Below, piece after piece: positions 31,653 to 48,461 of a stretch of 64,000 nt of DNA. This stretch comes from Escherichia coli phage AZ21, in sequence record LC788708.1; one strand, given 5' to 3'. Below the pieces are notes generated by a model. That model ran no database searches. It worked only from the letters and a program-made list of their open reading frames with translations, and was not told where the DNA came from. Position 1 is the stretch's first letter; every line of letters begins with the position of its first letter. A program made the position numbers and the translations under genes.

Positions 31653-31653
31653 T

Positions 31654-32279: not shown

Positions 32280-32884
32280 TGACTTTTAATACACAACAAT
32301 CTATTCAAGTAGTGCCAGATCATGAACTGAACACATGGGATTATAGCTTTAAAGATTTAACTGCTACTATACAATTTAAATCTATGAAGCTAACATTTGC
32401 ACACACTGATCTTAGAGCCTGTAAAGATCTTGAGGATAAGCTCGAAGATGCTCGTAAGATTTTTGGCAAGGCTCGCATCCCGGCTGATAATCTAATTAAC
32501 GCATTAATCGATGTAGGATACAAACTCGTGAAGACTGAGGTGAACCGCCCTAGTACTCCAGTGACTGTTAGAGATCCGTGGCAGCCAGGGACAATCTCAA
32601 TGCTAAATAAATCATCGGATATACACAATGTTCCATGCGGTGGTGTGGTAAGTAGTACGCAGTCATACAAGTTTGGTGAAGATTACGGCCCTTCTGTGCA
32701 GTTGAAACATACTCAAGAAGCTTTTGAATCTGATATGCGAAGCGTAGCACCTGTGGATGCTGGAGTTTCTAGGAGTTCTGTTTGTACTATTCATTTTAAT
32801 AATCCTAGTAAACATGGAAGTTTAGAGGATGCTATCCTTGAAGCGTTGGGAGCTGCTATTAATGAAGATAAAAGAGGTAGTTAA
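32279..32884 (+). CDS. hypothetical protein (201 aa)
   Basis: TAATG coupling. Confidence 0.65.
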   Translation: MTFNTQQSIQVVPDHELNTWDYSFKDLTATIQFKSMKLTFAHTDLRACKDLEDKLEDARKIFGKARIPADNLINALIDVGYKLVKTEVNRPSTPVTVRDPWQPGTISMLNKSSDIHNVPCGGVVSSTQSYKFGEDYGPSVQLKHTQEAFESDMRSVAPVDAGVSRSSVCTIHFNNPSKHGSLEDAILEALGAAINEDKRGS

Positions 32885-33774
32885 TGGGATTTTATAGTAA
32901 TAGAAAACCAAAAGGTGTAACTGGTAAATTCGCAGTTGAAGAAAGACCTTTTCCACCGGTCGATGTAGAGAAACTACGTGAACTTCTAGAAATGCTAGAA
33001 GGTTGCCATGAACGTTGTTATTCTGAACTCTCTTTAAATGAGAAACGTGTTGTTGAGATGTTCTGTATTCGTTCAGCTAGAACAGCTAAAGGTACTTCTC
33101 CAAAAGATGAAGTAAAAGAGTACAGAGTTCTAGTGATGCATGCTTGGGCACAACGTTTTGCAGTTCATTCGCTTCAGGAATGGTTTAATCTTCCAGCCTA
33201 TAAAGATTTTCATGTTTACGAAGATGAGGTTATGAATTATAATGAGTTGTATGGTTTGTCCTTCAAAAAGACAGGCTCACCGATGCATGATGCACTCAAT
33301 TCATTCCCTGATCATTACCTTCCAGTTCGTGAATATAGAGATCGTGAAGGAAATAAACCCTGCTTCACTATTTGGAATAAGTCTAAGACGATATCTGATC
33401 TAGATAATTATTGGTTTCGCACAAAAGAAGGATTCCTAGGAACAGAACCTTTACCTAAGGATCTCAAACCTATCCTTCCGCCTGCGAAACCTAAACATGA
33501 AGTAACGATTGCTATTAATAGAATAATTCTAGGAGCAGATGATCTTACTAAACAAATCGCCGCAGTTATCGCAGTTCTGTTTGACGGTACAAATTCTTCT
33601 GCACGTTATGAGAAGCTAACGGATAACAAATTGCAGATACCTAACGAGTTGTATGAGAGTTCGTGCAAGATCTATGATAACTTTAGTAAAGTAGATTACC
33701 CCGTGAGATCCATTAAAGAACTCATGGAGTATGCGGAGATGGGGATGAAAGGAAATCTCATGTTCGATGAATAA
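32884..33774 (+). CDS. hypothetical protein (296 aa), last gene of the early arm
   Basis: TAATG coupling. Long clean ORF. Confidence 0.7.
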   Translation: MGFYSNRKPKGVTGKFAVEERPFPPVDVEKLRELLEMLEGCHERCYSELSLNEKRVVEMFCIRSARTAKGTSPKDEVKEYRVLVMHAWAQRFAVHSLQEWFNLPAYKDFHVYEDEVMNYNELYGLSFKKTGSPMHDALNSFPDHYLPVREYRDREGNKPCFTIWNKSKTISDLDNYWFRTKEGFLGTEPLPKDLKPILPPAKPKHEVTIAINRIILGADDLTKQIAAVIAVLFDGTNSSARYEKLTDNKLQIPNELYESSCKIYDNFSKVDYPVRSIKELMEYAEMGMKGNLMFDE

Positions 33775-33781
33775 ACTCTAC

Positions 33782-33810
33782 TTGACGTTATGATTTCTGC
33801 ATGTTATAAT
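33782..33810 (+). promoter_or_regulatory. near-consensus sigma70 promoter reading into an ORF-free region
   Basis: TTGACG, 17 nt, TATAAT. Confidence 0.65.
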
Positions 33811-33817
33811 AACTCTA

Positions 33818-33990
33818 TGAAATAACATAGAATAAAGAGATCCACCCGGATACGGATGGTGGATGGGAAACTTCTATTTCCCCCGTAGCTTGTCGGAGGG
33901 CTAGGGAAATCTTAAGAAGTTTTGTACCATCTCACGCAATTCGTATCCCAGGGGTGGAGCATCTCTTCCAATCTTTGGGGATCTTATACT
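33818..33990 (+). ncRNA. candidate promoter-driven structured transcript
   Basis: No ORF. Local hairpins CTATG-aaataa-CATAG, TCCACC..GGTGGA and GGGAAA..TTTCCC. Long-range pairing CCACCCGGATACG / CGTATCCCAGGGGTGG. Confidence 0.3.
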
Positions 33991-34138
33991 TAAATTAAAG
34001 GTAAAACTTTTGGTCACATAATTTACATTCAAGATGATACACTGGTTGCCGCCATTCTTCCTAGGATGGCACAACACTTTCTTCTAGACTCCTAAGTTTC
34101 TAGGAATACTAACTCTAGAGTTTACACTAAACTTTGAA

Positions 34139-34876
34139 TCGGATTCGCACATGCTCTAGGGCAGTTTTTCATCTACTATAAATATCCTAGGCCGGTTTTC
34201 CTATACAGGGCGGTTATGGGGAGGGCGGTTATTTCTAGACAATAAAATTTACTCTTGTCAGTCCAGAAATTACTGTCGGATTTGCACATTGTGTTTCTAG
34301 AAATTTATGGTCGGATTTGCACAATTGCCTAAGTTTTTAGGAACATATAATCTCCTGAAAATGGCAGCATTATTTCGGGCCGAAGGCCCATGATTGCCTG
34401 AGTTTTTTTAGAGACACAGAAATTTTCACTTGTCAAGCTATTTTGCCCCATTTTGCTAATAAAATTTTACTTTATCTCCCCTAATCTCAAATTAACCCAA
34501 ATCTTCTCAACTCTTCTCCAAAATCCCCGCAAATCAGGTGCTCCGCACCAAACATGCGCCCCTCCCGTAGTTCCCCCAAGTTTCTCTCGATCTCTCAACT
34601 TCTCCCCAAACTCATACAATCACACACCCTCCAATCGAAGTCACAAAAATCTTGTCGGATTCGCACAAATAAACCCATGTCGGATTTGCACATATTCTAG
34701 TTAATTCCACAGGATTGATGCGCAGCATCGGATTGCTGGAGTTTTTGGGAGAATTCATTGTCGGATTCGCACACTATAAAAATTTTTCGGGTCGGATTTG
34801 CACACTACCAAAAATTGTCGGATTCGCACATACACGCCCACGCGTAATCCATGGGGGCAAATGTCGGATTTGCACA
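34139..34876 (+). repeat. array of nine direct 14-bp iterons GTCGGATT(T/C)GCACA
   Basis: Copies start at 34139 (lacks the first G), 34275, 34310, 34654, 34679, 34760, 34791, 34817 and 34863. All share one orientation. Confidence 0.9.
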
Positions 34877-34881
34877 AAAGC

Positions 34882-34899
34882 GCAGGGCAATTGCCCTGC
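34882..34899. repeat. perfect 18-bp palindrome GCAGGGCAATTGCCCTGC
   Basis: Read directly from the sequence. Confidence 0.9.
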
Positions 34900-34904
34900 T
34901 TGCC

Positions 34905-35100
34905 TGAATGCGAATGATAATGAGAATCATTTGCATTTAAAAAGCGGAATGAGAATGATAATAATTCGCATTTAAGAATGGAAGTGAGAATTATTCAGGA
35001 AGTGAAACGATTCTCATTTAAAAAGTGAAACGATTCTCATTTAGAAAGTGAAACGCGAATGATAATGATTCGTATTTAAGAATGGAAGTGAGAAACACTA
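34905..35100. promoter_or_regulatory. cluster of Fur-box-like imperfect palindromes and short tandem repeats
   Basis: 19-mers at 34916-34934 and 34951-34969 match GATAATGATAATCATTATC at 16/19 and 15/19 by hand. A 23-bp unit AGTGAAACGATTCTCATTTAAAA is tandem at 35001 and 35024. A ~40-bp direct repeat lies at 34947-34990 and 35054-35094. Confidence 0.6.
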
Positions 35101-35281
35101 TTATTTAAGTTATCCACAGACTTATCAACAGCACGATTTGACTTGACAGAATCCTAGCCATTTTGAGGCGTTATCAACAGACTTATCAACAGCTTATCCT
35201 ACTGTATAAATATACAGTATTCCTATGCAGTGAATAATTCTAATATACAGCTAAAACGCTCTCAAACGCATTCTAACGCGT
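35086..35281. repeat. left arm of a ~200-bp imperfect inverted repeat carrying DnaA-type boxes
   Basis: TTATCCACA at 35110. TTATCAACA at 35122, 35171 and 35183. Aligns with the reverse complement of 39128-39330. Confidence 0.85.
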
Positions 35282-35413
35282 TTAATTTTGGTGGGGATAC
35301 TAAAACAAGGGCAAAATTGGAGGAGGCTTGAAAATTAGTTAGCTCGCTAATGATCACACACGGCGACACGTAACACCCTAACCATTAGCAGGCTAACCAT
35401 CGCGGGCGTGGTC

Positions 35414-35434
35414 AAATGAGAATGATTCTCATTT
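35414..35434. repeat. perfect 21-bp palindrome AAATGAGAAT-G-ATTCTCATTT (Fur-box-like core)
   Basis: Read directly. The TGAGAATGATTCTCA core differs from TGATAATNATTATCA at one symmetric position pair. Confidence 0.85.
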
Positions 35435-35475
35435 GTGGATTGGGGGCGCTTCCTGATAGTTGCGCCCCGTGATTA

Positions 35476-35589
35476 TTATAGTAGGGGGCAACCGTTACGC
35501 TTTGCCCACTCCCGCCACTCATCTTGGTGCCTAGACTTGCGACGGCGTACTAAAAACCGCTTGTACCAGTGATTAAACCATCGTTTCAT
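35476..35589 (-). CDS. possible 37-aa basic Trp-rich peptide, last gene of the leftward cassette
   Basis: ATGA overlap with the upstream gene's stop. MKRWFNHWYKRFLVRRRK... Below the track cutoff. Confidence 0.35.
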   Translation of the reverse strand: MKRWFNHWYKRFLVRRRKSRHQDEWREWAKRNGCPLL

Positions 35590-35789
35590 AAATCCTCCTC
35601 CGGTAGTCGATGCGTGATCTTTTCCTCCTCCCCATAGGAATCCACCAAATACTGATAATAACCATCGTGATCATAAATCACTTTATCATATTCCCCACGC
35701 TCGACCGCTTGCCGATTTTCCAACGTATCAGGCACAAAGAAAGTATCAACGGTAACAGTAGTTTTAGTTACAACAATTTTATCACTCAT
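35586..35789 (-). CDS. pre-early-region hypothetical protein (67 aa)
   Basis: Co-directional cassette. AGGGG RBS region. Confidence 0.55.
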   Translation of the reverse strand: MSDKIVVTKTTVTVDTFFVPDTLENRQAVERGEYDKVIYDHDGYYQYLVDSYGEEEKITHRLPEEDL

Positions 35790-35809
35790 AATGCCATCGC
35801 CCCTAGAAT

Positions 35810-35828
35810 GAGAATGATTATCAATATC
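35810..35828. promoter_or_regulatory. Fur-box-like 19-mer GAGAATGATTATCAATATC
   Basis: 16/19 to the Fur consensus by hand. Lies in the intergenic gap of the leftward cassette. Confidence 0.45.
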
Positions 35829-35915
35829 ATTGTGAAGCCATTACCAAATCGTAAACGCTGGGAATGTTTCCCAGCGGTATTATTAGACTTATGGCTTTGT
35901 GTTTTTCGCCACCAG

Positions 35916-36116
35916 CTATTCACGGTAGACGCTCCATCCGTCTAGCTTCCATTCTTCCCCCTTGCGAATATTGAAAAACCAATCATTAAAATTGTAACCA
36001 TCTTCTGACATGATCACGCCGTTTTCTTTCATGTACAAAAATTCATCACTAGTAAAATATTGATTACTAACTTTAAAACCTTGTTTCATTTTTTCTAGTG
36101 CTTCATCTTTAGTCAT
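35916..36116 (-). CDS. small protein (66 aa) with DUF2829/Tad2-like N-terminal pattern (tentative)
   Basis: MTKDEALEKMKQGFKV... and a Trp-rich C-terminal part. ATGA coupling to the upstream gene. Confidence 0.55.
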   Translation of the reverse strand: MTKDEALEKMKQGFKVSNQYFTSDEFLYMKENGVIMSEDGYNFNDWFFNIRKGEEWKLDGWSVYRE

Positions 36117-36457
36117 TGCGCCACCTTTCGAAACGCTGTTTCAATACTATCCGCAGTGGATTGAATATATGCGCCTTTGAGTATCAGCCGCTCGGTGCAT
36201 ATCTTGCGAAAAATATTAATAAAATCGTCCTCATTTTCTGCGATTAATGCCTCACCCATAACCTGAACGTCGCAAGATGCAAAGGTCAAAAATTGAAACG
36301 CTAGTTCACGGGCAACGACCGCATTGATTTTATAATGCGCCTTGCCTTCATAGATATTAATAACGCCCTTATAAGCTGGCGAAAGCTGATTTAAGTAGTT
36401 TGCTAATAATGCCGGACGGCAATTAGCAACAAAACGATTGCCCTCATAAATAACCAT
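36113..36457 (-). CDS. hypothetical protein (114 aa)
   Basis: Co-directional cassette. Confidence 0.6.
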   Translation of the reverse strand: MVIYEGNRFVANCRPALLANYLNQLSPAYKGVINIYEGKAHYKINAVVARELAFQFLTFASCDVQVMGEALIAENEDDFINIFRKICTERLILKGAYIQSTADSIETAFRKVAQ

Positions 36458-36584
36458 TTGATAGTCTCCCGATTAGATAGCCAGATAATAACATAAAGAT
36501 CCCCAATAAAAGAGGATCATTCTTAAATAAGGTGGCGGTAAAACCGCCAACCATTGCAAGGAGAATAACAATAATGCTTTTCAT
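36444..36584 (-). CDS. possible 46-aa 2-TM peptide
   Basis: ATGA overlap with the upstream stop. MKSIIVILLAMVGGFTATLF...LLLGIFMLLSGYLIG. Below the track cutoff. Confidence 0.45.
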   Translation of the reverse strand: MKSIIVILLAMVGGFTATLFKNDPLLLGIFMLLSGYLIGRLSNGYL

Positions 36585-36793
36585 AGTACCCCACGAAACG
36601 CAGCGTAAAAGGTGGCAAAGTGTTTAACTGTTTCAGCAATCACGTTGCCGCGCTTATCAAATTTCTTTTCTGTAACACGAAAGGCATTTTTATTACGTGC
36701 TACATATTCGATTTTACAATCTTCCCGCTCGAACGTGTTAACATCCACCAGCTTAAAGCCTTTCGAACGTGCAAGAGAAACGTTGCGGATCAT
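36581..36793 (-). CDS. hypothetical basic protein (70 aa)
   Basis: AGGGGA RBS. Confidence 0.55.
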   Translation of the reverse strand: MIRNVSLARSKGFKLVDVNTFEREDCKIEYVARNKNAFRVTEKKFDKRGNVIAETVKHFATFYAAFRGVL

Positions 36794-36795
36794 TT

Positions 36796-36978
36796 TTATT
36801 CCCCTTTACTAGTCATGCAGCCCAGCAGATAAGAAAATACAGCGATGCCAGCACCAATAGTAACCATTGGTTTTATATTTACTAAACCGCAATAGGAATC
36901 CTGAATACCATAAGCGGTGGCGAAAAGAGTCAAAATAGCGCCCAAGATACCCGCTAAAATAGCTCGAAAAATAACCAT
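36796..36978 (-). CDS. 2-TM membrane protein (60 aa)
   Basis: GAGGAG RBS. Two hydrophobic helices. Confidence 0.55.
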   Translation of the reverse strand: MVIFRAILAGILGAILTLFATAYGIQDSYCGLVNIKPMVTIGAGIAVFSYLLGCMTSKGE

Positions 36979-37027
36979 TTGTAATACTCCTCTAGTTAGT
37001 GGGGCGAAAGTAACGCCCCGTTATTAA

Positions 37028-37258
37028 TTACATTAAAATAATTTTTGCCGCTTGTTTTTTGGTACAGTGTTCCGCTTTCAGGGTGTCCAGCAAAAAGCCC
37101 GCCGTTTGCTGATCGATTTTATCGGCATTATATAGTTCTTGGATGGTGTTATAAGTTTTAGCAATGCCGTATTCTTGTACCATTTCTTGAATAATCCAGC
37201 GATTTGATACCCAGCCTTTACCAGTGAAAAGAGCGTCAGAAGAAGAGTAAGCAACCAT
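37028..37258 (-). CDS. hypothetical protein (76 aa)
   Basis: ATG 37258 after a GGAGG RBS. The track start at 37291 lacks an RBS. Confidence 0.55.
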   Translation of the reverse strand: MVAYSSSDALFTGKGWVSNRWIIQEMVQEYGIAKTYNTIQELYNADKIDQQTAGFLLDTLKAEHCTKKQAAKIILM

Positions 37259-37321
37259 TTTAAGCCTCCAAATTTTTGGGAAAATTTTCAACCGTCCTCA
37301 AACGGTGTAAAGGCATTATAA

Positions 37322-37348
37322 CAAAAAAGGCCGCCATAAAAGGCGACC
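37322..37348 (-). terminator. rho-independent terminator (minus strand)
   Basis: GGTCGCC-ttttat-GGCGGCC followed by TTTTTT on the minus strand. Confidence 0.65.
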
Positions 37349-37364
37349 TTTACAAAACTTTACA

Positions 37365-37859
37365 TTAAACTACTTGTAAGGATTCAATATTGAAACATCG
37401 TTTCAGTTCGTCATGCAAAACGGCATATTCATCCCATCGGGTACTATCAGGAATATAAACAAGCTGTTTTAATCGGTTTGCATATATTACCGCTTTGTTA
37501 TCAATTATCTCGACGCCACCATATTTAATAATTAATTTCATGACGGAATTAATAGGATCGCCGCCGTTTACATATGCGCCGGATTTACTTAATTGATAAT
37601 GATAAAGGCTTGCATATACGTTTTCATTTTCATACCATTCGCCAGTCTCTTCGTCTTCATAGCCATCGCTACCAAAACGAGAAGCATTATCAACAGCCAT
37701 TTCATGAGCAAAAGCGTCCAGATCCGTACCAGCAGGAACAAAATATTCCTCGGTATTCCCTTCCCCGCAATAGCCAGTATGACAATCGACTAAAATGATC
37801 ATATCATGTTTAGCCTTGCTCACTTCCCCTAGCGAGAAGCCGTATTTTTCTTCTAACAT
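37365..37859 (-). CDS. hypothetical acidic protein (164 aa)
   Basis: ATG 37859 after AGGAGACTAATT. Confidence 0.65.
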   Translation of the reverse strand: MLEEKYGFSLGEVSKAKHDMIILVDCHTGYCGEGNTEEYFVPAGTDLDAFAHEMAVDNASRFGSDGYEDEETGEWYENENVYASLYHYQLSKSGAYVNGGDPINSVMKLIIKYGGVEIIDNKAVIYANRLKQLVYIPDSTRWDEYAVLHDELKRCFNIESLQVV

Positions 37860-37923
37860 AATTAGTCTCCTATTAATTAACAAGGAAATAGTAAAGCGGG
37901 GAAATAATCCCCGCTAGATATTA

Positions 37924-38157
37924 TTACTCGTTTTCGGTGTTAGTGGTAAAAGTAGAGATATCGATACCTTTTACCATTTCATCGATCATCTCAGCGATGT
38001 TAAAACTTTGCACCATTTCTAACATTGCCGCTTCCATAGCCGCCCCTGCTACCGCTTTCGCTTTCTGATTAGTCGGGGCGTACTGGTCAACCGCTACACT
38101 CAGCAGGTTAGCGATCACTACACGACCAATCGGCGTATCAATATAGCCTTTGATCAT
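37924..38157 (-). CDS. 77-aa ORF, probably the C-terminal part of the upstream gene
   Basis: Open in the +1 frame relative to 38138-38929. No RBS of its own. Confidence 0.5.
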   Translation of the reverse strand: MIKGYIDTPIGRVVIANLLSVAVDQYAPTNQKAKAVAGAAMEAAMLEMVQSFNIAEMIDEMVKGIDISTFTTNTENE

Positions 38158-38929
38158 AAACGGTGCTTTTTTTAGCCGCTACTTTCGTGATTTGAGTTAG
38201 TGCAATTTTACCAGCTTCCAGTTTTGCAGCGTTTACAACAGCGGATTTATTAGCGGCAACGATATTAGCGATCTTGGTCATGGTATTTTTTCCTTTGTTT
38301 TCAGTAGTTTGAGTATTAACGCTTTGAGTGTTAGAGCTTACAACCTGTTTTTCAATATTGTCAACTGGTTTTAGTGTAAATCCAGCATTTGCAACGTTTG
38401 ATTCATTCCCATACTCTAAATAATCACTAGGGATCAACATGTTGCCACTAGCGCGTTCAAAACATAACACGCCAGTTGTAGAAATTACATTACTATCAGC
38501 ACTTTTGTAATTAGCTGATAGTTCACGCCAAATGCTAGTTAATAACGATCCGACACTATCAGTCCTGATATTACTTACTTTTGTTGCTGTTACTTGCTCT
38601 TTTTCTTGCACGTTATATAATCGCGCAATGTAACCACTATTAGATTCACTATAACCAACAATGATAAAATCAATATCTCTTCCACGTTGATTGCGGAAAA
38701 TGTGATAATCACGGTTGAAAATTACTAGCGCCCTTTTCTGGTCTAGTAATTGTGTGAAATCTTCAACTGAATAATGAGTACCCTCATCGTCTAAAATTCT
38801 ATCATGAATCTTTTCGATAATAGTAGCGGTATGCTGTACGCTTGCCGCGCTACTACCCTCTAACAGATTGCGCAAACTGCCTTTAATAATAGTGGCGTTT
38901 GCTGGTACTGCAATTCTTACAGTAGACAT
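38138..38929 (-). CDS. first gene of the leftward cassette (263 aa as written)
   Basis: GGGAG RBS. Ends 27 nt after an A7 run at 38167-38173. Confidence 0.65.
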   Translation of the reverse strand: MSTVRIAVPANATIIKGSLRNLLEGSSAASVQHTATIIEKIHDRILDDEGTHYSVEDFTQLLDQKRALVIFNRDYHIFRNQRGRDIDFIIVGYSESNSGYIARLYNVQEKEQVTATKVSNIRTDSVGSLLTSIWRELSANYKSADSNVISTTGVLCFERASGNMLIPSDYLEYGNESNVANAGFTLKPVDNIEKQVVSSNTQSVNTQTTENKGKNTMTKIANIVAANKSAVVNAAKLEAGKIALTQITKVAAKKSTVYDQRLY

Positions 38930-38961
38930 TTTATTTTGTCTCCCTCGTTAATCGGTGAGTG

Positions 38962-38991
38962 AATGATAAGGGTAATTTTCTAGCATAGGCA
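38962..38991 (-). promoter_or_regulatory. candidate promoter of the leftward cassette
   Basis: On the minus strand: A-tract, TTGCCT, 18 nt, TATCAT. Confidence 0.4.
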
Positions 38992-39127
38992 AATATTATT
39001 TTACTTTTTTATTTTCCTTGCCTAGCGTCTAATTTTATGCTAACCGCGCAGCGGTGCAATAAAGAGCAAACCACGGCGAAGCCACCAGCCCGACGCATTG
39101 AGGCTTTACTTTAATATTACCTTACAG

Positions 39128-39330
39128 CGTTTAGCTCGTTAGAATGCGTTTTGGGCCACTTAAAATTGATTGCAGTTGTTAACACTACCTTTCTACCCTG
39201 TATATTTATACAGTGGAATAACCTGTGGATAAGTCTGTGCAAAAGTCCTTATATCACCGCCTATCGTGTCAAGTTATTTTGTGCTGTGGAAAACATTGTG
39301 GATAACTTAAATGATAGTGCTTCTCACTTA
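39128..39330. repeat. right arm of the ~200-bp imperfect inverted repeat with DnaA-type boxes
   Basis: TGTGGATAA at 39224 and 39297. TGTGGAAAA at 39285. The shared core CTGTATAAATATACAG is also present. Confidence 0.85.
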
Positions 39331-39554
39331 GGCTAATGATTTCTTATAGTTATTATTTCTCATTAATTTATAAGTATATTATATATTATCAAATAGTTAG
39401 TTGGCTAATGAGATTTTCCGTGATTAATAGTCTGCTAATAATTCAGGTCGTTACAATCCACCAGCATGATTATCATTCTAGCAATTATTAGTCTGCTATC
39501 TTTCCGATACATACTAACAAATAAAAGTCAATTAATTTATTTCATAAAATAAGT

Positions 39555-39591
39555 AGTTATCCACTGGAAAATAAAAGTCAAGTGGATAACT
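39555..39591. repeat. palindrome of two inverted DnaA-like boxes
   Basis: AGTTATCCACT - 15 nt - AGTGGATAACT. A further TTATCAACA lies at 39624. Confidence 0.8.
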
Positions 39592-40034
39592 AGGAAAATT
39601 TCATTTTTGCTTTTGGGGATAAGTTATCAACAAGGCTAGAATGCGCCTAAAACGCTCCAGAACGCGATGAAGTTTTTAGCCACCCCATCATAAGGGGATA
39701 GGCCGTTTATCGCTGCCACGAGCTTTTTAGATTTTGTCAAGTAGGGGAAAGCAAATATAAATGAAAAAATTACTTGCCTATTTGCTTTATTTTGTGGTAT
39801 TCGCGCCCGTTTCTTTTAATTTTAGGCCGTCGCCGGACGTGGTGCGGTGAATTTTGTCTTTACGTTTCTTTACAAAAATAAGGTTGCGCCATTTTCGGGA
39901 ATCCCCTATTATTTATCACGTAGGGCGGCAATGACGAACTACACGGCGGGAAGTTTACCGCCACGCTCTTTAAAAATTGGGTACATCTTAAAGCCTATCG
40001 GCGGTAAACTTATTTATTATAAGGAATCGACGAT

Positions 40035-40247
40035 ATGAAACAAACTTTATTGATCACTGGCAAGCCTATTAAGGCACTAGATAGCAAAACAAAAAATTTG
40101 TTGACAGTAGCGCAAAGATCGGTAAAATACCGATTCACGCAGTACAAGAAAGACCGCCAGCAAGGTTTAGAAATGATCTGGCGAAACATTATGATTGACT
40201 TGAAAGAAAATCATAAAAAACTGCAAAAAAATTATTTGACAACCTAG
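40035..40247 (+). CDS. doubtful 70-aa basic ORF inside the bracketed segment
   Basis: AAGGAAT RBS-like sequence, but the segment contains several -35/-10-like elements. Confidence 0.3.
   Translation: MKQTLLITGKPIKALDSKTKNLLTVAQRSVKYRFTQYKKDRQQGLEMIWRNIMIDLKENHKKLQKNYLTT
40101..40128 (+). promoter_or_regulatory. candidate pre-early promoter
   Basis: TTGACA, 16 nt, TAAAAT. Confidence 0.45.
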
Positions 40248-40264
40248 CCGATAGGTTTTAAGAT
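40236..40264 (+). promoter_or_regulatory. candidate pre-early promoter of the A2-A1-dmp operon
   Basis: TTGACA, 17 nt, TAAGAT. Confidence 0.55.
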
Positions 40265-40391
40265 GTACCCAGTTCGATAAGAGCGATAACTTGATAAAAT
40301 TTGACGGTCGGTGCTTACCATAATGCGCCCCGCCCCCTAACGGGATATAGCGGCCTACGTGGAGTTCTTTAAATTGATTATAGCGGCGAGA

Positions 40392-40445
40392 GGATTGTTA
40401 CTTATTACCTGCTAGTATTTTCTAGTAGGTAATAAGTAACAATCC
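40392..40445. repeat. 54-nt near-perfect palindrome (24-bp stem, 6-nt loop)
   Basis: GGATTGTTACTTATTACCTGCTAG-tatttt-CTAGTAGGTAATAAGTAACAATCC. Lies just upstream of the first operon RBS. Confidence 0.9.
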
Positions 40446-40468
40446 ATCAAATAACTGGAGTTTATATT

Positions 40469-40720
40469 ATGCAAAACGTTATTACCGCGCCTAAAATTGG
40501 TCAATCCGTCTTTATTCCTTTCGTTACTAAAACGGATGAATTAACCGGAAAGGCCGAACGTATTAAAGGTGCGGCGCTTATGCCGTTCGATACAATCGAC
40601 GCGGTATATGCTGAAAATGAACGCAGTAACAACGGCAAGCCCGTTTTTAGCGTTCGCGTTAAATCCGGCGATGTTGTAAAGGTTGTTCAACGCAACGAAA
40701 AATGGGAAGCTGTGTTGTAA
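40469..40720 (+). CDS. pre-early hypothetical protein (83 aa)
   Basis: CTGGAG RBS. Followed by a hairpin at 40734-40763. Confidence 0.65.
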   Translation: MQNVITAPKIGQSVFIPFVTKTDELTGKAERIKGAALMPFDTIDAVYAENERSNNGKPVFSVRVKSGDVVKVVQRNEKWEAVL

Positions 40721-40818
40721 TTTAGTGTTAACTTTATATCCCCCTTATTTCAGGGGGATATAACGATTAACATTAAGTTAATCTAATCCCTTAAATTAAA
40801 CTAATAGGAGTTTTTACC

Positions 40819-41226
40819 ATGACTAACGCAAAAACCGCAAAATTCGCATGGAATGAAGAAAACACTCAGAAAGCTGTTACCATGTACCAGCAGTTAATCA
40901 ACGAAAACGGTTTAGATTTTGCAAATAGCGACGGCCTGAAAGAGATTGCAAAAGCAGTAGGCGCGGCCTCCCCCGTATCCGTTCGGTCAAAATTGACCAG
41001 TGCAAAAGCCTATCAAAAAAGCGATAAGCCGCGTAAAGTTGGCGGCGGTAGCTCTGTGCGTAAAGCTCACTATGTGCGAGTAATTGCAAAACACGCTATC
41101 GATTCCGGTATTATCAAAGACGCCGATGATCTGGCAAGCCTTGAAAGTGCTAAACTGGAAACGCTGGACGCGGTGGCGCAACTGTTAGGCGTTGCCGATG
41201 AAGTAAAACAAGCCGTAGGTGAATAA
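40819..41226 (+). CDS. A2: pre-early protein A2
   Basis: 135 aa. Size, position just upstream of A1 and recalled sequence character match T5 A2. Confidence 0.75.
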   Translation: MTNAKTAKFAWNEENTQKAVTMYQQLINENGLDFANSDGLKEIAKAVGAASPVSVRSKLTSAKAYQKSDKPRKVGGGSSVRKAHYVRVIAKHAIDSGIIKDADDLASLESAKLETLDAVAQLLGVADEVKQAVGE

Positions 41227-41316
41227 TAGTTATACCTTGCCCCCTTCTAGTGAGGGGGCACTAATATAACTGTTTAGCGATAGTTATTTTCTTCCCTTAA
41301 ATCAGGAGTTTTAAAA

Positions 41317-41514
41317 ATGGTTTTCTTCCCTACTGAATCTTTGATTCTAGGCTTGTTTATTATGGCGGCCTCATTATTGTTCGCTTATTTTCAGAATGAT
41401 TTAGATTCGTATTATTTTAAACGTAAATCTAAATTAGCAAAACGTTTGGGCTTGCTTTGTTTTATCGCTGCCGTTGCCTGTGGTGTTAGTTCGAGTCTAG
41501 TACCATTAAATTAA
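41317..41514 (+). CDS. pre-early 2-TM membrane protein (65 aa)
   Basis: CAGGAG RBS. Two hydrophobic helices. Confidence 0.6.
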   Translation: MVFFPTESLILGLFIMAASLLFAYFQNDLDSYYFKRKSKLAKRLGLLCFIAAVACGVSSSLVPLN

Positions 41515-41601
41515 TGTTGCAAATTATAACGCCTATTATTCGAGGCGTTATATTTGGCAATATTGCCATTATTAACCTAATCCCTTTAATGGAGTTTTAT
41601 T

Positions 41602-43272
41602 ATGATTATTTCCGCAGAAAAACAAACCGTTATCCTGAAAATGGCCGCTGATTTCAATTTCTACGGTAAACGCCTGCGCGCCACTAAACTGGAGGTCTGC
41701 GACGATATTTCAAAAGCGGTCTACGATACAACGAAACACTCCACCGCTATCTGCGACTGGCTGGAAGCAAATAAACCAGCGAAACCAAAAGCGGCAAAAG
41801 TAGCAAAAGCCATTAAAAACGGTGAGCGCCCCGAAGCGGCTGGGATTGTTTCTAGTACCGTGGAGCAGTGGGAAGTAAAACAAGGTAAACGCTTTATTAT
41901 TACATCGATTCAGAATAATACTTTCCCGCATAAAAACTTTTTAGCCTCACTGGAGCAATTTGCTAAATATATCGGGGCTGATTTGCTCGTTTCTAAGTAT
42001 ATTTATAATAAAAACGGTTTTCAAAATGGGGAAGGTGCTGACGGAATCAAATATGATTCCGCGTTTGATAAATATATTTGCAGCAAAAACGTGTTTTTGA
42101 ATAACCGCCGCTTTGCTTTCATGGCTGAAATTAATGTTTTGCCTACCGCAGATTATCCGCTTTCTGGATTCGCAGAAACTGCAACGGCTTTAAATATTGA
42201 AGGTCTGGCAATTGGTCACGCTAAAATTACCGCTGAAAGCGTACCAGCTTTAAAAGGTGAAGTAGTGCGCCGTATGTACTCAACCGGAACGGCAACGCTC
42301 AAAAACTACATTCAGCAGAAAGCAGGACAAAAGGCCGAGGCGCTGCATAACTTCGGTGCGCTTATTGTTGAGTTCGACGAGGACGGGGAATTTTTTGTAC
42401 GCCAGCTTGAAACGATGGACGAAAGCGGGGTATTTTATGATCTGAATGTGTGTGCTACTCCTGCCGGATGCTATGAAACATCGGGGCATGTTTTAGGCTT
42501 GCAGTATGGCGATATTCACGCCGAAAAATTAGATGAGGAGTGCGCCGCCGCGTCATGGGGGCATGGTGATACTTATGGGCTAGTAGATATTCTTAAACCA
42601 AAATATCAGTTTGTGCATGACGTGCATGATTTTACATCGCGCAATCATCATAACCGCGCATCGGGTGTATTCCTAGCAAAACAGTACGCCGCCGGACGTG
42701 ATAAGGTTATTGATGATCTTATCGATACGGGGCGCGTGCTGGAATCAATGGAGCGTGATTTTTCTCAAACAATCATTGTTGAATCGAATCACGATTTGGC
42801 GTTATCCCGTTGGCTTGATGATCGTAATGCTAACATCAAAGACGATCCAGCAAACGCAGAACTGTATCACCGCCTGAATGCTGCAATTTACGAGGCAATC
42901 GGTGAACATGACGAAACGTTCAACGTGCTAGATTATGCGCTGCGCAAGGTTGCAGGTTGTGAGTTTAACGCCATTTTCCTGACCACTGACCAATCTTTCA
43001 AGATTGCAGGCATTGAATGCGGCGTACACGGTCACAACGGCATTAATGGCAGTCGTGGCAATCCCAAACAATTTAAGAAATTGGGCAAGTTAAACACTGG
43101 TCATACTCATACGGCAAGCATTTACGGCGGGGTATATACCGCTGGCGTAGCTGGTAGTCTGGATATGGGTTACAACGTTGGCGCGTCAAGCTGGACGCAA
43201 ACTCATTTAATTACCTATGCAAACGGTCAGCGCACTTTGATTGACTTTAAGAACGGTAAATTTTTTGCGTAA
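41602..43272 (+). CDS. A1: pre-early protein A1 (metallophosphoesterase-type nuclease motifs)
   Basis: 556 aa, the T5 A1 length by recall. C-terminal half has GDIHAEK, VESNHD, GVHGHNG and TGHTH motifs of calcineurin-like/Mre11-type phosphoesterases. Confidence 0.8.
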   Translation: MIISAEKQTVILKMAADFNFYGKRLRATKLEVCDDISKAVYDTTKHSTAICDWLEANKPAKPKAAKVAKAIKNGERPEAAGIVSSTVEQWEVKQGKRFIITSIQNNTFPHKNFLASLEQFAKYIGADLLVSKYIYNKNGFQNGEGADGIKYDSAFDKYICSKNVFLNNRRFAFMAEINVLPTADYPLSGFAETATALNIEGLAIGHAKITAESVPALKGEVVRRMYSTGTATLKNYIQQKAGQKAEALHNFGALIVEFDEDGEFFVRQLETMDESGVFYDLNVCATPAGCYETSGHVLGLQYGDIHAEKLDEECAAASWGHGDTYGLVDILKPKYQFVHDVHDFTSRNHHNRASGVFLAKQYAAGRDKVIDDLIDTGRVLESMERDFSQTIIVESNHDLALSRWLDDRNANIKDDPANAELYHRLNAAIYEAIGEHDETFNVLDYALRKVAGCEFNAIFLTTDQSFKIAGIECGVHGHNGINGSRGNPKQFKKLGKLNTGHTHTASIYGGVYTAGVAGSLDMGYNVGASSWTQTHLITYANGQRTLIDFKNGKFFA

Positions 43273-43328
43273 TTAAATTATTTCCCTAGCGGCTTGAAAT
43301 ACAGCCGCTATTACAGGAGCTAAATTAA

Positions 43329-43607
43329 ATGGCTATTAAAATTAATCTTCCCAATATTAAAAACACCGCTGATATATGGTCGATTGATACTATATTGCGT
43401 GGCACTGTATACCGTAATTTAAAAGATAATAATTGTTATATTTATCAAAATGAATTAAACGGCCATATTTACATAATCGAGTCCGATGGTTTTTGTTCTT
43501 TTGAGACTGATTATGAAGCGCAAGATCATATACAGGCAAATGATATTCCTGACGTATGGAAAGAAACAAACCTTGCTTTTGTTGTAAGTCTTGAAGCTAA
43601 CAAATAA
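43329..43607 (+). CDS. pre-early hypothetical protein (92 aa)
   Basis: CAGGAG RBS. Confidence 0.6.
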   Translation: MAIKINLPNIKNTADIWSIDTILRGTVYRNLKDNNCYIYQNELNGHIYIIESDGFCSFETDYEAQDHIQANDIPDVWKETNLAFVVSLEANK

Positions 43608-43645
43608 ATTAAATATCTTATTAAATTAATTGGAGTTTTACAAAT

Positions 43646-44038
43646 ATGAAAAAGCAAAATATTCCATTCGATCGCGCTCAGTCTTCTATTGTTCTGGTTT
43701 ATTCTAATGGTGAGCGTTACCACGTCGAGGCGGGGCACGTTATTGATGAATTATTAGATTTCAATGACGCTTTACAGGTTACTACCTTTGCCTACACGCA
43801 AGGCCGCGCAAGTAGTTACATTAAGGCCGCAGGCGTTTATGTTGACACGGTGAAACAAGAAACGATTATCATCGACGCAGTAAAATCCGGTCTAGCCTTT
43901 GCAGTTGTCGCGCCTTGCCCCTCTTGTCTTGATGATCAGCTAACGAGTGCGAAAGTATACACCTGCGCGGGCATTCGTTCCCATGTATCAGGAGAGGATA
44001 TTAGTTTTATCGCTGATGCGTTGGCTTATGGTCTTTAA
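43646..44038 (+). CDS. pre-early hypothetical protein (130 aa)
   Basis: TTGGAG RBS. Confidence 0.6.
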   Translation: MKKQNIPFDRAQSSIVLVYSNGERYHVEAGHVIDELLDFNDALQVTTFAYTQGRASSYIKAAGVYVDTVKQETIIIDAVKSGLAFAVVAPCPSCLDDQLTSAKVYTCAGIRSHVSGEDISFIADALAYGL

Positions 44039-44118
44039 TAGTTGATTTATTATTGCCCGCTGATAGATAGCGGGCAATGCTGGATAAACTACATCCCTTT
44101 AATGGAGAACGTAACAAA

Positions 44119-44853
44119 ATGAATCAAGTTAAAACGAATATTTCCCGTAACTTCCCGCATATTTCCCGCGTCATGATCTGGGATCTTGATGGCACTATCG
44201 TTAATTCATTCCATCGTGTAGCGCCTTGCTTTGATAGTGAGGGTAATCTAGATTTAAATAAGTATAAGAATGAGGCTTGCAAACATGATTTAATAATGCA
44301 GGATACTTTATTGCCTTTGGTGGAATATATGCGCCAATGCATGAATGACGCAAATACTTTAAACATTATTTGTACCGCTCGATTAATGAGCAAATCGGAT
44401 TATTATTATTTGCGCAAACAAGGCTTGCGAGGGCGTGGGGATAGCAATATCCGCGTGTTTTCCCGCGACACGCTGCATAAATATTTTGAAGCTGATAAGG
44501 TTAGCGAGATATACCACAGTAAAGACGCAGTTTATAAATCGTATTACTTTGAATTATTTAAACAGCTATATCCGAACGCTGATTTCACAATGATTGATGA
44601 TCATAAAGGTGTATTATCAGCGGCGGCGTCATACGGATTTAAAACGCTAGACGCGCAAGCCGTTAACGATATTCTATCAATCGGCGTGGCATTGATAGGC
44701 GGAACCTTTATTGATGAATCTCTCGATGATGATAATGATTATCAGTTCCTAGCCGATCGATTGAAATTATGTTGGGAAAGTATGACCGAAGAAGAACGCG
44801 CAGAATATAGTTGCAGCCCGCAACAATATATTGAGAAATTAAAAGTTGCGTAA
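44119..44853 (+). CDS. dmp: 5'-deoxyribonucleotidase (HAD family)
   Basis: 244 aa from ATG 44119. The track start at 44077 lies in hairpin 44052-44078. HAD motif I is IWDLDGTIV. Confidence 0.8.
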   Translation: MNQVKTNISRNFPHISRVMIWDLDGTIVNSFHRVAPCFDSEGNLDLNKYKNEACKHDLIMQDTLLPLVEYMRQCMNDANTLNIICTARLMSKSDYYYLRKQGLRGRGDSNIRVFSRDTLHKYFEADKVSEIYHSKDAVYKSYYFELFKQLYPNADFTMIDDHKGVLSAAASYGFKTLDAQAVNDILSIGVALIGGTFIDESLDDDNDYQFLADRLKLCWESMTEEERAEYSCSPQQYIEKLKVA

Positions 44854-44870
44854 TAATTAAAGTTGAAATA

Positions 44871-44907
44871 GTTTCATCCTGCAATTAAAATGGTTGCGGG
44901 ATGAAAC
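44871..44907 (+). terminator. 14-bp GC-rich hairpin closing the A2-A1-dmp operon
   Basis: GTTTCATCCTGCAA-9 nt-TTGCGGGATGAAAC. No clear T-run. Confidence 0.5.
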
Positions 44908-45017
44908 AATTACCCTGCTAATAGTAACGGGGGTGGCGGTTAGCAGACTAAGTATTCTCCCCCAACCCACTGGACACACCTCCATGTGTAATCCTATGAA
45001 ATTTGGCAAAAGTCAAA

Positions 45018-45263
45018 TTAGCGCATAGAAGGGTCATCAAACCTGTGCTCTGGTCTGAACTCACGGAATCTCTTCCACGACGCCCGAGATCCATCAGACC
45101 ACTCCCGCTCAAACTCCGCACGTTTCTCGTCAAACTTCCGCTCCCTTTCCGCAATCTCTCGCGTCACCCCCGCGATATATTCCCGATGCTTGTTAATTGC
45201 CGCAGTTGTCCCGAAAACTCCCGCGAGTATCCCGATAATAAAAGCAATTACAATACTAAACAT
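45018..45263 (-). CDS. N-terminal-TM protein with a charged tail (81 aa)
   Basis: Last of a coupled minus-strand chain. Confidence 0.6.
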   Translation of the reverse strand: MFSIVIAFIIGILAGVFGTTAAINKHREYIAGVTREIAERERKFDEKRAEFEREWSDGSRASWKRFREFRPEHRFDDPSMR

Positions 45264-45450
45264 CTAATTCCCTCTCAATTTGCAGAATACGGGTACTATC
45301 ACAACGTTGCAGTAGTGCTAGCTTTTCTAGAGTAACTTGTTGTTGTTTTACCTGAGCTTCTAGAGTTTTTAGGCGGAGATACACGATACGAGAGACAATG
45401 AGGATTACCCAGACTAATATTACCATTAGTGTAATTGCCGCTTCCATCAT
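45256..45450 (-). CDS. single-TM coiled-coil protein (64 aa)
   Basis: ATGA coupling to the upstream mini-ORF. Confidence 0.6.
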   Translation of the reverse strand: MMEAAITLMVILVWVILIVSRIVYLRLKTLEAQVKQQQVTLEKLALLQRCDSTRILQIERELDV

Positions 45451-45554
45451 TTACGTTTCTCCAATAATAAGGTTTCAATTCTAGCTAAATGATTATCTAA
45501 AATACATTGTCCAATAATCACAATCCCTAGTAGTGCAATAATTACCCATTCCAT
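45447..45554 (-). CDS. 35-aa single-TM peptide
   Basis: TAATG overlap upstream and ATGA overlap downstream. MEWVIIALLGIVIIGQCIL... Below the track cutoff. Confidence 0.5.
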   Translation of the reverse strand: MEWVIIALLGIVIIGQCILDNHLARIETLLLEKRK

Positions 45555-45682
45555 TAAATCCACCCCGCCATAGCTGCTAACCAAAAACCTACGAAGATTA
45601 GGAATAATACAAAACCAAATCCGTAAATATTAATCCACGCTTCATATACTTCTCCGCGTCTGTTCTTTCTTTTATTTGACAT
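45554..45682 (-). CDS. C-terminal-TM peptide (42 aa; start may be 45691)
   Basis: GGAG about 10 nt upstream of ATG 45682. GFGFVLFLIFVGFWLAAMAGWI helix. Confidence 0.5.
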   Translation of the reverse strand: MSNKRKNRRGEVYEAWINIYGFGFVLFLIFVGFWLAAMAGWI

Positions 45683-45797
45683 ATCTTTCATGCTCCAATA
45701 AATGTGGTATCTGGAATATTTTACAGTTTGTGCACAACCAACCATGCTTGTGACTTCCTAGAAGGACTTCTCATTTTCTTGCATAGTGGTTTCTGCC

Positions 45798-45835
45798 AAT
45801 ATACCATCCAAAAAATAAAAAATTTAGTTTACTTG
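45798..45835 (-). promoter_or_regulatory. candidate promoter of the tiny-membrane-protein chain
   Basis: On the minus strand: T/A-rich tract then TGGTATATT (extended -10 like). Confidence 0.3.
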
Positions 45836-45856
45836 GATGTCGTTTTGCTTTATACT
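45828..45856 (+). promoter_or_regulatory. candidate + strand promoter reading antisense through llp towards pb5
   Basis: TTTACT, 17 nt, TATACT. Same hexamer style as the promoter at 49837. Confidence 0.35.
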
Positions 45857-45858
45857 AA

Positions 45859-46125
45859 TTACAGGTAGTTAGATTGCTCTAGTTTAAATTTACAATCACC
45901 GTATTTAAGATCAAACTGACTGAGATCCCACCACCCAAACTTAGTACGGAGCTGTACTACTGGGAAGCGATCTCCCTTAATACGAACTTTTTGAACTTTG
46001 AGGCCATAATGTTCTTCTCCTGCACCTCCAAAAGATTTTACAAATCCCGTACAAAATGGTTTGGGAGCAGGTGCACAACCAGATAACATAACTGCGGCAA
46101 CTAGTGCAATCACAAACTTTTTCAT
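45859..46125 (-). CDS. llp: receptor-blocking lipoprotein (Llp-like)
   Basis: Lipobox MLSGC after the signal sequence. Divergent from and adjacent to the receptor-binding protein gene, as in T5. Confidence 0.75.
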   Translation of the reverse strand: MKKFVIALVAAVMLSGCAPAPKPFCTGFVKSFGGAGEEHYGLKVQKVRIKGDRFPVVQLRTKFGWWDLSQFDLKYGDCKFKLEQSNYL

Positions 46126-46156
46126 ATTTATCTCTCCATTTCTAATTTATGAATCT

Positions 46157-46185
46157 ATTATAGCAAAATAGAGGGATGAAAGCAA
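46157..46185 (-). promoter_or_regulatory. T5 early-type promoter for llp
   Basis: On the minus strand: TTGCTT, 17 nt, TATAAT, followed by the CATAAATTAG box. Confidence 0.7.
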
Positions 46186-46210
46186 ATACATTTTTATAAT
46201 AGGAGATTAT

Positions 46211-47968: not shown

Positions 47969-47978
47969 AGGAGGATAT

Positions 47979-48461
47979 ATGGCAAATGATGTATTAGTTC
48001 CCGATCTCATGTCTCCCGAAGGCATGGATGTTATTGAAGCCTATTTACAGTGCGGTAGTGATGTTCCTGCCGCCGCTCGTAGTCTTGGAATGTCCGAGAT
48101 TGCATTTCGTGATATAATGAATCGTGGGGAAGTTAAAAACTATCTCAACGATATCTTTATGGAAAGCGGCTTCCGTAATCGTGACCGCTTATTCGGAGTT
48201 CTTGATGAAGTTATCAAACGCAAGTTGGAAGAACTCGAAGAAACTGGCATGGGTTCTGACCAGGATATCATGGATATTCTCTGGAAGGCGCACAAGATGA
48301 AGATGGAAGAAATGAAAATGATGGTAGAACTGGAGAAAGTGAAGGCAGCAGCCCGTACTCCGGCTAACCAGACTAATATTCAGAATAATATTATTGCTGG
48401 AAGTGGTGACGAAAACTATATGAATCTTATTACCGCTCTAGCAGGAGGAGGTAAGAGATAA
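47979..48461 (+). CDS. terminase small subunit
   Basis: 160 aa, immediately upstream of and overlapping the large subunit. N-terminal HTH-like region. Confidence 0.7.

What the first reader, a model, noticed from the sequence alone, without database searches (positions are those of the whole stretch)
33775..45858. One copy of the T5-type terminal repeat joins the early and late arms, so the virion ends lie inside this window
- **Left of 33.8 kb:** an early-gene arm, co-directional with PN25-type promoters.
- **Right of 45.86 kb:** llp, pb5, terminase and the structural genes.
- **Between them:** A2, A1 and dmp, which in T5 are pre-early genes carried on the ~10-kb direct terminal repeat that is injected first.
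- **What this implies:** in a linear T5-type virion the early arm abuts the left repeat copy and llp abuts the right copy. A single copy bridging both therefore means the repeat was collapsed, or the sequence was circularised, during assembly.
- **Other contrasts:** the block is visibly richer in G+C. It uses a different RBS context (GGAGTTTT). It places a GC hairpin after every gene, unlike the flanks.
- **Limit:** the repeat boundaries cannot be read from one copy. Candidates are about 45.75-45.86 kb and somewhere in 33.8-35.6 kb.
Basis: partly seen in the sequence, partly recalled or inferred. Interest (0 to 1): 0.55.

Follow-up and report, generated by a model that had tools for sequence, protein, structure and literature searches.

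The report
Collapsed T5-type terminal repeat in assembly
This stretch is the roughly 10.6-kb terminal repeat of a T5-like coliphage, written once in the deposited sequence because assembly merged the two end copies; this is a well-known artefact, and comparison with relatives places the true virion ends at window positions 34411 and 44975/6.

Summary
The window is 100% identical to Escherichia coli phage AZ23 (LC788707.1, 104,075 bp, Tequintavirus). That record holds a single copy of the T5-type terminal repeat (TR), and its own ends fall inside the tail-fibre gene.

The block encodes A1, A2 and dmp at 96%, 98% and 96% identity to T5. It also carries the T5 left-repeat hallmarks: nine DRD repeats, the IRD'-spacer-IRC' / IRC-spacer-IRD inverted repeats and paired DnaA boxes. 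A T5.018-like early gene lies on one side. T5.162/161 homologues, llp, pb5 and terminase (95% to T5) lie on the other.

Aligning the termini of T5, MM-1, L6jm, HASG4, DT57C and Sw2 puts the repeat at window 34411 to 44975/6 (about 10,565 bp). The right boundary is not at 45.75-45.86 kb. The small minus-strand genes at 45018-45745 are unique DNA, as in T5.

The secondary contrasts are real but modest: G+C is slightly higher, GGAGTTTT ribosome sites precede four genes, and hairpins follow 12 of 17 genes.

TR collapse in T5-like assemblies is already described, so interest is low.

Two things were noticed in passing. Fur-box-like sites occur only in the repeat. A conserved promoter drives a sequence-hypervariable long hairpin at 33782-33967, unannotated in T5.

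The parts
32884..33774 (+). Last gene of the early arm, a homologue of T5.018 (the gene that abuts the LTR in T5).
   Evidence: 44% identity to T5.018. T5 map.
33782..33810 (+). Near-consensus sigma-70 promoter (TTGACG, 17-nt spacer, TGT-TATAAT) pointing toward the repeat. It is conserved in T5-like phages and not annotated in the T5 records.
   Evidence: No such feature in the T5 records.
33835..33967 (+). Long imperfect hairpin in unique DNA just downstream of the promoter. At least five unrelated sequence versions sit at the same place in relatives.
   Evidence: MFE -67 kcal/mol, z = -5.3. It has the lowest MFE of all + strand 160-nt windows. Variants. Compensatory changes. No Rfam match.
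34138..34323 (+). DRD repeat copies 9, 8 and 7 (GTCGGATTYGCACA), lying outside the terminal repeat as they do in T5.
   Evidence: T5 annotation of DRD copies 7-9 beyond the LTR end. Davison, 10.1101/866236.
34411..44975 (.). Terminal repeat, single collapsed copy (10,565 bp, or 10,566 bp if the T5 end position 44976 applies). Position 34411 corresponds to the right virion end. Position 44975/6 corresponds to the left virion end, which is injected first.
   Evidence: Termini of T5, MM-1, L6jm, HASG4, DT57C and Sw2 aligned to the window. Match limits of L6jm, MM-2 and TUMS_E3 at query position 637.
34654..34876 (+). DRD repeat copies 6 to 1, inside the repeat.
34907..35095 (.). Direct repeats and palindromes of the injection-stop region (DRE/DRC type), with Fur-box-like sequences.
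35086..35217 (+). IRD'-spacer-IRC' element with paired DnaA and DnaA-like boxes (TTATCCACA-GAC-TTATCAACA). This is the core of the proposed injection stop signal.
   Evidence: Description in 10.1101/866236.
35586..38929 (-). Pre-early operon that reads rightward in T5 orientation (homologues of T5.011-T5.017). T5.011 is split into ORFs of 263 and 77 aa.
39198..39329 (-). IRC-spacer-IRD, the inverted partner of 35086-35217, with paired DnaA boxes.
40819..41226 (+). A2, a DNA-binding protein required for second-step transfer.
   Evidence: 98% identity to T5 A2. PHROG 1725.
41602..43272 (+). A1.
   Evidence: 96% identity to T5 A1. PHROG 1745.
44119..44853 (+). dmp, deoxynucleoside-5'-monophosphatase. 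It is the last gene before the left virion end.
   Evidence: 96% identity to T5 dmp.
45018..45745 (-). Three small genes in unique DNA between the repeat and llp. ORFs 45018-45263 and 45256-45450 are homologues of T5.162 and T5.161. The identity of 45554-45745 was not tested.
   Evidence: 84% and 72% identity. T5 map. MM-1 map.
45859..46125 (-). llp/Cor-type lipoprotein.
   Evidence: PHROG 1119 and lipobox. Only 30% identity to T5 Llp.
46211..49777 (+). pb5-type receptor-binding protein, small terminase subunit and large terminase subunit.
   Evidence: TerL and TerS are each 95% identical to T5.

Best explanation
The window comes from a short-read-type assembly of a T5-like phage (AZ23). In that assembly the two identical ~10.6-kb direct terminal repeats of the linear virion DNA were merged into one copy. 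The contig therefore reads early arm - repeat - late arm and was opened elsewhere, inside the tail-fibre gene.

In the virion, the left end is the reverse complement of window 44975/6, reading toward dmp, A1 and A2. This end is injected first. The right end is at window 34411. The segment 34411-44975 is present at both ends. Predicted virion length is about 104,075 + 10,565 = 114.6 kb if the record is otherwise complete.

What is shown here:
- the identity of the genes and repeats;
- single-copy status in the record;
- conservation of both cut-site sequences;
- agreement of the termini across relatives.

What is inferred: AZ23 terminase cuts at the same two sites, and the segment is duplicated in the virion.

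Functionally the block is the first-step-transfer DNA of T5-type two-step injection. It carries the pre-early genes and the injection-stop region.
For: - Identity to AZ23 is 100%, with one place in the record.
- The record ends lie inside a tail-fibre gene.
- A1, A2 and dmp are 96-98% identical to T5. TerL and TerS are 95% identical.
- Synteny matches T5 on both sides.
- Nine DRD repeats are present, three of them outside the repeat exactly as in T5.
- The IRD'/IRC' elements and DnaA boxes are present.
- Left termini of six deposited genomes coincide within 1 nt at window 44975/6.
- Right termini of T5, MM-1 and the PhageTerm-determined Sw2 coincide at 34411.
- The literature states that assemblers mishandle the T5 repeats (10.1101/866236).
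Against: - No reads are available, so neither two-fold coverage nor fixed ends can be shown for AZ23 itself.
- The termini of some reference records may themselves have been set by homology to T5 rather than measured.
- The AZ23 cut-site contexts differ slightly from T5: a two-T insertion and one substitution at 34400-34415, and several substitutions at 44955-44970.
Confidence: 0.93

Rival explanations
1. The repeat in AZ23 extends further right than in its relatives, up to the llp gene at about 45.75-45.86 kb.
For: One copy alone cannot show a boundary. The sequence runs on without any break through 44976-45858.
Against: - In T5 and MM-1 the homologous small genes (T5.161/162 and their MM-1 counterparts) lie outside the annotated RTR.
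- Six genomes start within 1 nt of window 44975/6.
- The cut-site sequence ...CACTGGAC|A is conserved.
Confidence: 0.04
2. The junction reflects real molecules, namely replicative concatemers or circles with one repeat per genome unit, and not an assembler artefact.
For: A concatemer junction would have exactly this sequence. Davison's model invokes circle and concatemer forms.
Against: - The record is deposited as a phage genome.
- Collapse of identical 10-kb repeats is the expected behaviour of assemblers.
- This rival does not alter where the virion ends lie.
Confidence: 0.03
3. AZ23 has truly lost the terminal redundancy, or packages DNA by a headful mechanism that gives a circularly permuted genome.
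For: None beyond the single copy in the record.
Against: - Terminase subunits are 95% identical to T5.
- Both cut-site sequences are conserved.
- The record ends are inside a gene, which points to an assembly break.
Confidence: 0.01

Closest known systems
Bacteriophage T5 left/right terminal repeat (first-step-transfer DNA). Lengths: 10,219 bp in AY543070 and 10,139 bp in AY587007.
   Same: - The gene order dmp, A1, A2 is the same.
- There are divergent pre-early operons.
- Repeat regions with IRC/IRD elements, DnaA boxes and nine DRD copies straddling the inner boundary are present.
- The same genes flank both sides.
- Terminus sequences are conserved.
   Different: - It is about 350 bp longer than in T5.
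- It lacks the HNH endonuclease hegG (T5.010).
- T5.011 is split into two ORFs.
- llp and pb5 are of another receptor type.
- Only one copy is present in the record.
Escherichia phage vB_EcoS_MM-1 (PV577657.1), deposited with both repeats of 10,407 bp.
   Same: About 92-93% nucleotide identity over the block. Boundaries are at homologous positions. T5.011 is split in the same way.
   Different: MM-1 is deposited in virion form at 118,039 bp. The hairpin cassette next to the LTR has a different sequence.
Single-repeat or permuted GenBank records of T5-like phages, a known assembly artefact.
   Same: One repeat copy bridges the early and late arms. Most of the top 30 matching records show one place only. 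The problem is described by Davison, and PhageTerm is used routinely to restore the ends.
   Different: Nothing essential. AZ23 is additionally broken inside the tail-fibre gene.

Membership tests
T5-type (Tequintavirus/Demerecviridae) long direct terminal repeat / first-step-transfer region | The pre-early genes dmp, A1 and A2 are present, in that order, starting from the left terminus. | tested here: met
   96%, 96% and 98% identity to T5 dmp, A1 and A2. The order 44853 <- 44119, 43272 <- 41602, 41226 <- 40819 reads away from the end at 44975.
T5-type (Tequintavirus/Demerecviridae) long direct terminal repeat / first-step-transfer region | An untranslated repeat region holds the injection stop signal: IRD'-spacer-IRC' with paired DnaA boxes, its inverted partner, and nine DRD repeats overrunning the inner boundary. 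| tested here: met
   Nine DRD copies, three of them outside the repeat. Inverted partners at 35086-35217 and 39198-39329. DnaA boxes. Definition from 10.1101/866236.
T5-type (Tequintavirus/Demerecviridae) long direct terminal repeat / first-step-transfer region | The unique DNA on either side matches what abuts the LTR (T5.018 side) and the RTR (llp, T5.159-162 side) in T5. | tested here: met
T5-type (Tequintavirus/Demerecviridae) long direct terminal repeat / first-step-transfer region | Terminus (cut-site) sequences are conserved at both boundaries. | tested here: met
   Alignments to six genomes at the left end and three at the right end.
T5-type (Tequintavirus/Demerecviridae) long direct terminal repeat / first-step-transfer region | Two identical copies sit at the two ends of the linear virion DNA. 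| not testable with these tools
   Needs reads or physical mapping of AZ23 DNA. The record holds one copy.
T5-type (Tequintavirus/Demerecviridae) long direct terminal repeat / first-step-transfer region | A T5-type terminase is present. | tested here: met
   TerL 95% and TerS 95% identical to T5.155 and T5.156.
Assembly-collapsed terminal repeat (artefactual circular permutation) | There is a single copy in the record, and the record ends are not the biological ends. | tested here: met
   One place in LC788707.1. The record starts and ends within a tail-fibre gene.
Assembly-collapsed terminal repeat (artefactual circular permutation) | Two-fold read depth over the repeat, with read-start pile-ups at the boundaries. 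| not testable with these tools
   No reads are available.

The most novel reading that the evidence does not exclude
The border between the unique DNA and the terminal repeat may be more than an assembly seam. It carries unannotated elements that are conserved across T5-like phages.

**(i) A promoter-driven long hairpin.** A near-consensus promoter at 33782-33810 drives a roughly 130-nt hairpin at 33835-33967.
- The hairpin sequence is replaced wholesale between close relatives, in at least five versions, while its position and shape are kept.
- The promoter-sense strand always folds better than the antisense strand.
- It could be a new phage non-coding RNA, made as soon as second-step DNA enters.
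- Alternatively it could be a DNA palindrome used in concatemer processing or repeat duplication, by analogy with the T7 hairpin intermediate. That analogy is recalled from memory and was not tested.

**(ii) Fur-box-like operators.** These occur only in the first-step-transfer DNA: in the injection-stop region, upstream of the T5.017 homologue, and inside dmp. They raise the possibility that host Fur binds this DNA.
Probability: 0.25. Interest if true: 0.5.

Novelty: already known. Interest (0 to 1): 0.13.

Why it matters
For the finding itself, the value is practical.
- The AZ23 record, and many similar T5-like records, are not in virion form.
- The coordinates 34411 and 44975/6 allow the record to be re-opened correctly, with the repeat duplicated.
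- This matters for counting restriction sites in first-step-transfer DNA, for comparative genomics and for taxonomy.

It adds nothing new about T5 biology.

The two side observations could become testable leads on how T5-like phages control two-step injection or early transcription. These are the hypervariable promoter-driven hairpin next to the left repeat, and the Fur-box-like sites confined to the repeat. They are unproven.

Tried and rejected
- **Rfam.** A scan of 30000-48000 at E <= 1 gave only three chance microRNA-like hits and nothing at the hairpin.
- **tRNAs.** ARAGORN found tRNAs only in the early arm, at 12.7-17.2 kb.
- **PN25 promoter.** A search for the PN25 sequence, as I recalled it from memory, found no match with up to 3 mismatches. 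The 'PN25-type' label was therefore not verified beyond the presence of strong sigma-70-like sites.
- **Pfam.** No families were found for A1, A2 or dmp. Identity rests on direct comparison with T5 and on PHROGs.
- **Literature.** No paper on AZ23 itself was found. No link between T5 and Fur was found. A T5 transcriptome search was uninformative.
- **IMG/VR promoter scan.** The pattern scan returned 97 loci. Most lie on contigs that are not of T5 size, and two of the 12 I aligned (L030, L092) proved unrelated; the other ten were T5-like.
- **Tooling limits.** Several fetched loci were not copied to the script machine. Boundary mapping was therefore done with the alignment tool and not with local BLAST.
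- **G+C argument.** The idea that the block is compositionally distinct enough to suggest foreign origin was rejected. The difference is 1-2.6 percentage points.
Full report
**What the sequence is.** The block 33775-45858 matches Escherichia coli phage AZ23 (LC788707.1, 104,075 bp, Tequintavirus, sewage, Japan) at 100% over its full length. It has a single matching place in that record. It also matches about 500 other T5-like phage records at 80-93% identity. Window position equals record position minus 33,912. All AZ23 genes are annotated as 'hypothetical protein'.

**Gene content.** Direct comparison with T5 (AY543070) gives these identities:

| Window ORF | T5 protein | Identity |
|---|---|---|
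| 41602-43272 | A1 | 96% (556 aa) |
| 40819-41226 | A2 | 98% |
| 44119-44853 | dmp | 96% |

PHROG matches agree.

- On the left, ORF 32884-33774 is a homologue of T5.018, the first gene to the right of the T5 left repeat.
- On the right, 45018-45263 and 45256-45450 are homologues of T5.162 and T5.161.
- These are followed by a Cor/Llp-type lipoprotein, only 30% identical to T5 Llp.
- Next come a pb5-type receptor-binding protein and the small and large terminase subunits, each 95% identical to T5.
- This mirrors the T5 right end: oad, llp, T5.159-162, then the right repeat.

**Is one copy an assembly product?**
- The AZ23 record begins with a feature annotated as a partial tail-fibre CDS.
- It ends with the start of a tail-fibre gene whose N-terminal region is highly repetitive.
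- The record ends are therefore contig breaks and not virion ends.
- Relatives deposited in virion form carry the block twice: MM-1 at 118,039 bp with LTR and RTR of 10,407 bp, and T5 at 121,750 bp.
- Among the 30 best-matching records, most have one place and seven have two.
- Davison (bioRxiv 10.1101/866236) notes that many GenBank T5-like records have dmp, A1 and A2 misplaced because assemblers cannot handle the large terminal repeats.
- BF23 and Sw2 had their repeats restored with PhageTerm.

**Where the ends are.**
- The right physical end of T5 and of MM-1 aligns to window 34411 (...GCCTGAGTTTTTTTA|GAGACACAG...).
- The PhageTerm-determined repeat end of Sw2 (record position 9816) falls on the same base.
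- The match limits of L6jm, MM-2 and TUMS_E3 also fall at query position 637, which is window 34411.
- The left physical end (position 1) of T5, MM-1, L6jm, HASG4, DT57C and Sw2 aligns within one base of window 44975/6 (...CCCACTGGAC|A|CACCTCC...).
- The repeat is therefore window 34411-44975/6, about 10,565 bp.
- Whether AZ23 itself is cut at exactly these bases is inferred from homology and not shown.

**Known landmarks inside the block.**
- Nine copies of GTCGGATTYGCACA lie at 34138-34876, against 0.04 expected by chance. Three of them are outside the repeat. This matches the nine DRD repeats of T5, whose copies 7-9 lie beyond the LTR end.
- Segments 35086-35217 and 39198-39329 are inverted partners carrying paired DnaA and DnaA-like boxes 3 bp apart. 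They correspond to IRD'-spacer-IRC' and IRC-spacer-IRD of the proposed injection stop signal.
- No large ORF lies in the 38.9-40.0 kb gap where T5 carries the HNH endonuclease hegG, so that gene appears to be absent (not tested by a direct search). Davison reports the same for most T5-like phages.

**Secondary claims.**
- G+C is 40.2% in the repeat, 38.4% in the left arm (37.6% in the adjacent 20 kb) and 39.2% on the right. The repeat ranks 33rd of 535 equal-length windows. The difference is real but small.
- GGAGTTTT occurs five times on the + strand of the 64 kb, always in the repeat. Four occurrences lie 11-14 nt upstream of the starts of A2, the T5.005 homologue, A1 and the T5.002 homologue. 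This is a true idiosyncrasy of one pre-early operon, not of the whole block.
- Strong hairpins follow 12 of 17 annotated repeat genes against 2 of 12 flank genes. A noisier whole-window test gives p = 0.013.

**How it works.** This rests on established T5 biology and is inferred for AZ23.
- The left end enters first.
- The pre-early genes, including dmp, A1 and A2, are expressed from first-step-transfer DNA.
- Transfer pauses at the injection-stop region and resumes in an A1/A2-dependent way.
- Terminase regenerates the two ends from replicated DNA.

**Noticed in passing (1): Fur-box-like sites.** Matches to the 19-bp Fur consensus GATAATGATAATCATTATC occur only in the repeat.

| Mismatches allowed | Sites inside the repeat | Sites in the other 53 kb |
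|---|---|---|
| up to 3 | 4 | 0 |
| up to 4 | 6 | 0 |
| up to 5 | 17 | 2 |

- The up-to-3 scan counting both strands gives 6 hits against 0.05 expected by chance; the position counts in the table are.
- Sites lie in the injection-stop region (34916, 34951, 35417), 20-40 nt upstream of the T5.017 homologue (35804-35828) and within dmp (44725-44749).
- Equivalent positions carry them in T5 and Sw2.
- The site at 34916 shares 16 of 19 bases with GATAATGAGAATCATTATT, which is listed as a Gram-negative iron box in PMC10665472.
- No paper linking T5 and Fur was found.
- This is a sequence resemblance only. Binding is untested, and the dmp site may simply reflect an acidic peptide.

**Noticed in passing (2): a promoter-driven hairpin.**
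- Eight bases after the stop of the T5.018 homologue lies a near-consensus extended -10 promoter at 33782-33810 on the + strand.
- It is followed by a roughly 130-nt imperfect hairpin at 33835-33967 (MFE -67 kcal/mol, z = -5.3).
- This is the most stable 160-nt + strand window in the whole 64 kb.
- MM-1 and T5 have a long hairpin at the same place with unrelated sequence.
- An alignment of T5-like loci found through the promoter pattern shows at least five sequence versions between conserved flanks.
- All versions fold into long hairpins. In 12 of 12 distinct sequences the promoter-sense strand folds better than the antisense strand, by 3.5-16 kcal/mol.
- Within the T5-type version, three pairs show compensatory double changes and three show wobble-compatible single changes, though these come from only two lineages.
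- The element has no Rfam match and is not annotated in three T5 records.
- Its function is unknown. Candidates are a 3' stabiliser or terminator for the leftward early operon, a small RNA, or a DNA palindrome acting in end formation.

**Verdict.** The phenomenon is already known, so interest is low. The side observations are leads and not results.

Noticed in passing
window 33782-33967 (+): A conserved near-consensus sigma-70 promoter is followed by a roughly 130-nt imperfect hairpin. The hairpin sequence differs completely among close T5-like relatives (at least five versions), while its position and shape are kept. It is unannotated in the T5 records and has no Rfam match.
   Followed up: partly
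window 34907-35095, 35415-35433, 35804-35828, 44725-44749: Fur-box-like sequences are confined to the terminal repeat: 17 sites against 2 at up to 5 mismatches to the 19-mer consensus. They sit at positions conserved in T5 and Sw2. One site lies just upstream of the T5.017 homologue. No literature link between T5 and Fur was found.
   Followed up: partly
AZ23 record ends (L006 1-1723; L007 1922-2500), outside the window: The deposited AZ23 record begins and ends inside a tail-fibre gene with SETNAK-type repeats. It is therefore a contig broken in a repetitive gene and may lack some sequence.
   Followed up: partly
window 37924-38929 (-): The T5.011 homologue (336 aa in T5, DUF7566) is split into overlapping ORFs of 263 aa and 77 aa. 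The same split is annotated in MM-1. It could be a frameshift, two genes or a pseudogene.
   Followed up: partly
window 45859-47968: The llp-type lipoprotein is only 30% identical to T5 Llp. The pb5-type protein is 585 aa, whereas the T5 oad gene (108427-110349) encodes about 640 aa. This suggests a receptor other than FhuA.
   Followed up: no
window 40385-40452 and 58041-58200: Two other unusually stable local structures on the + strand. The first lies in the divergent pre-early promoter region (repeat region 1). The second lies in the late region, outside the finding.
   Followed up: no
window 34379-34391: A GC hairpin, GGGCCGAAGGCCC, lies about 20 nt before the right-end cut site. It is within a stretch that is nearly invariant across T5, MM-1 and Sw2, and could be part of the terminase recognition context.
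   Followed up: no
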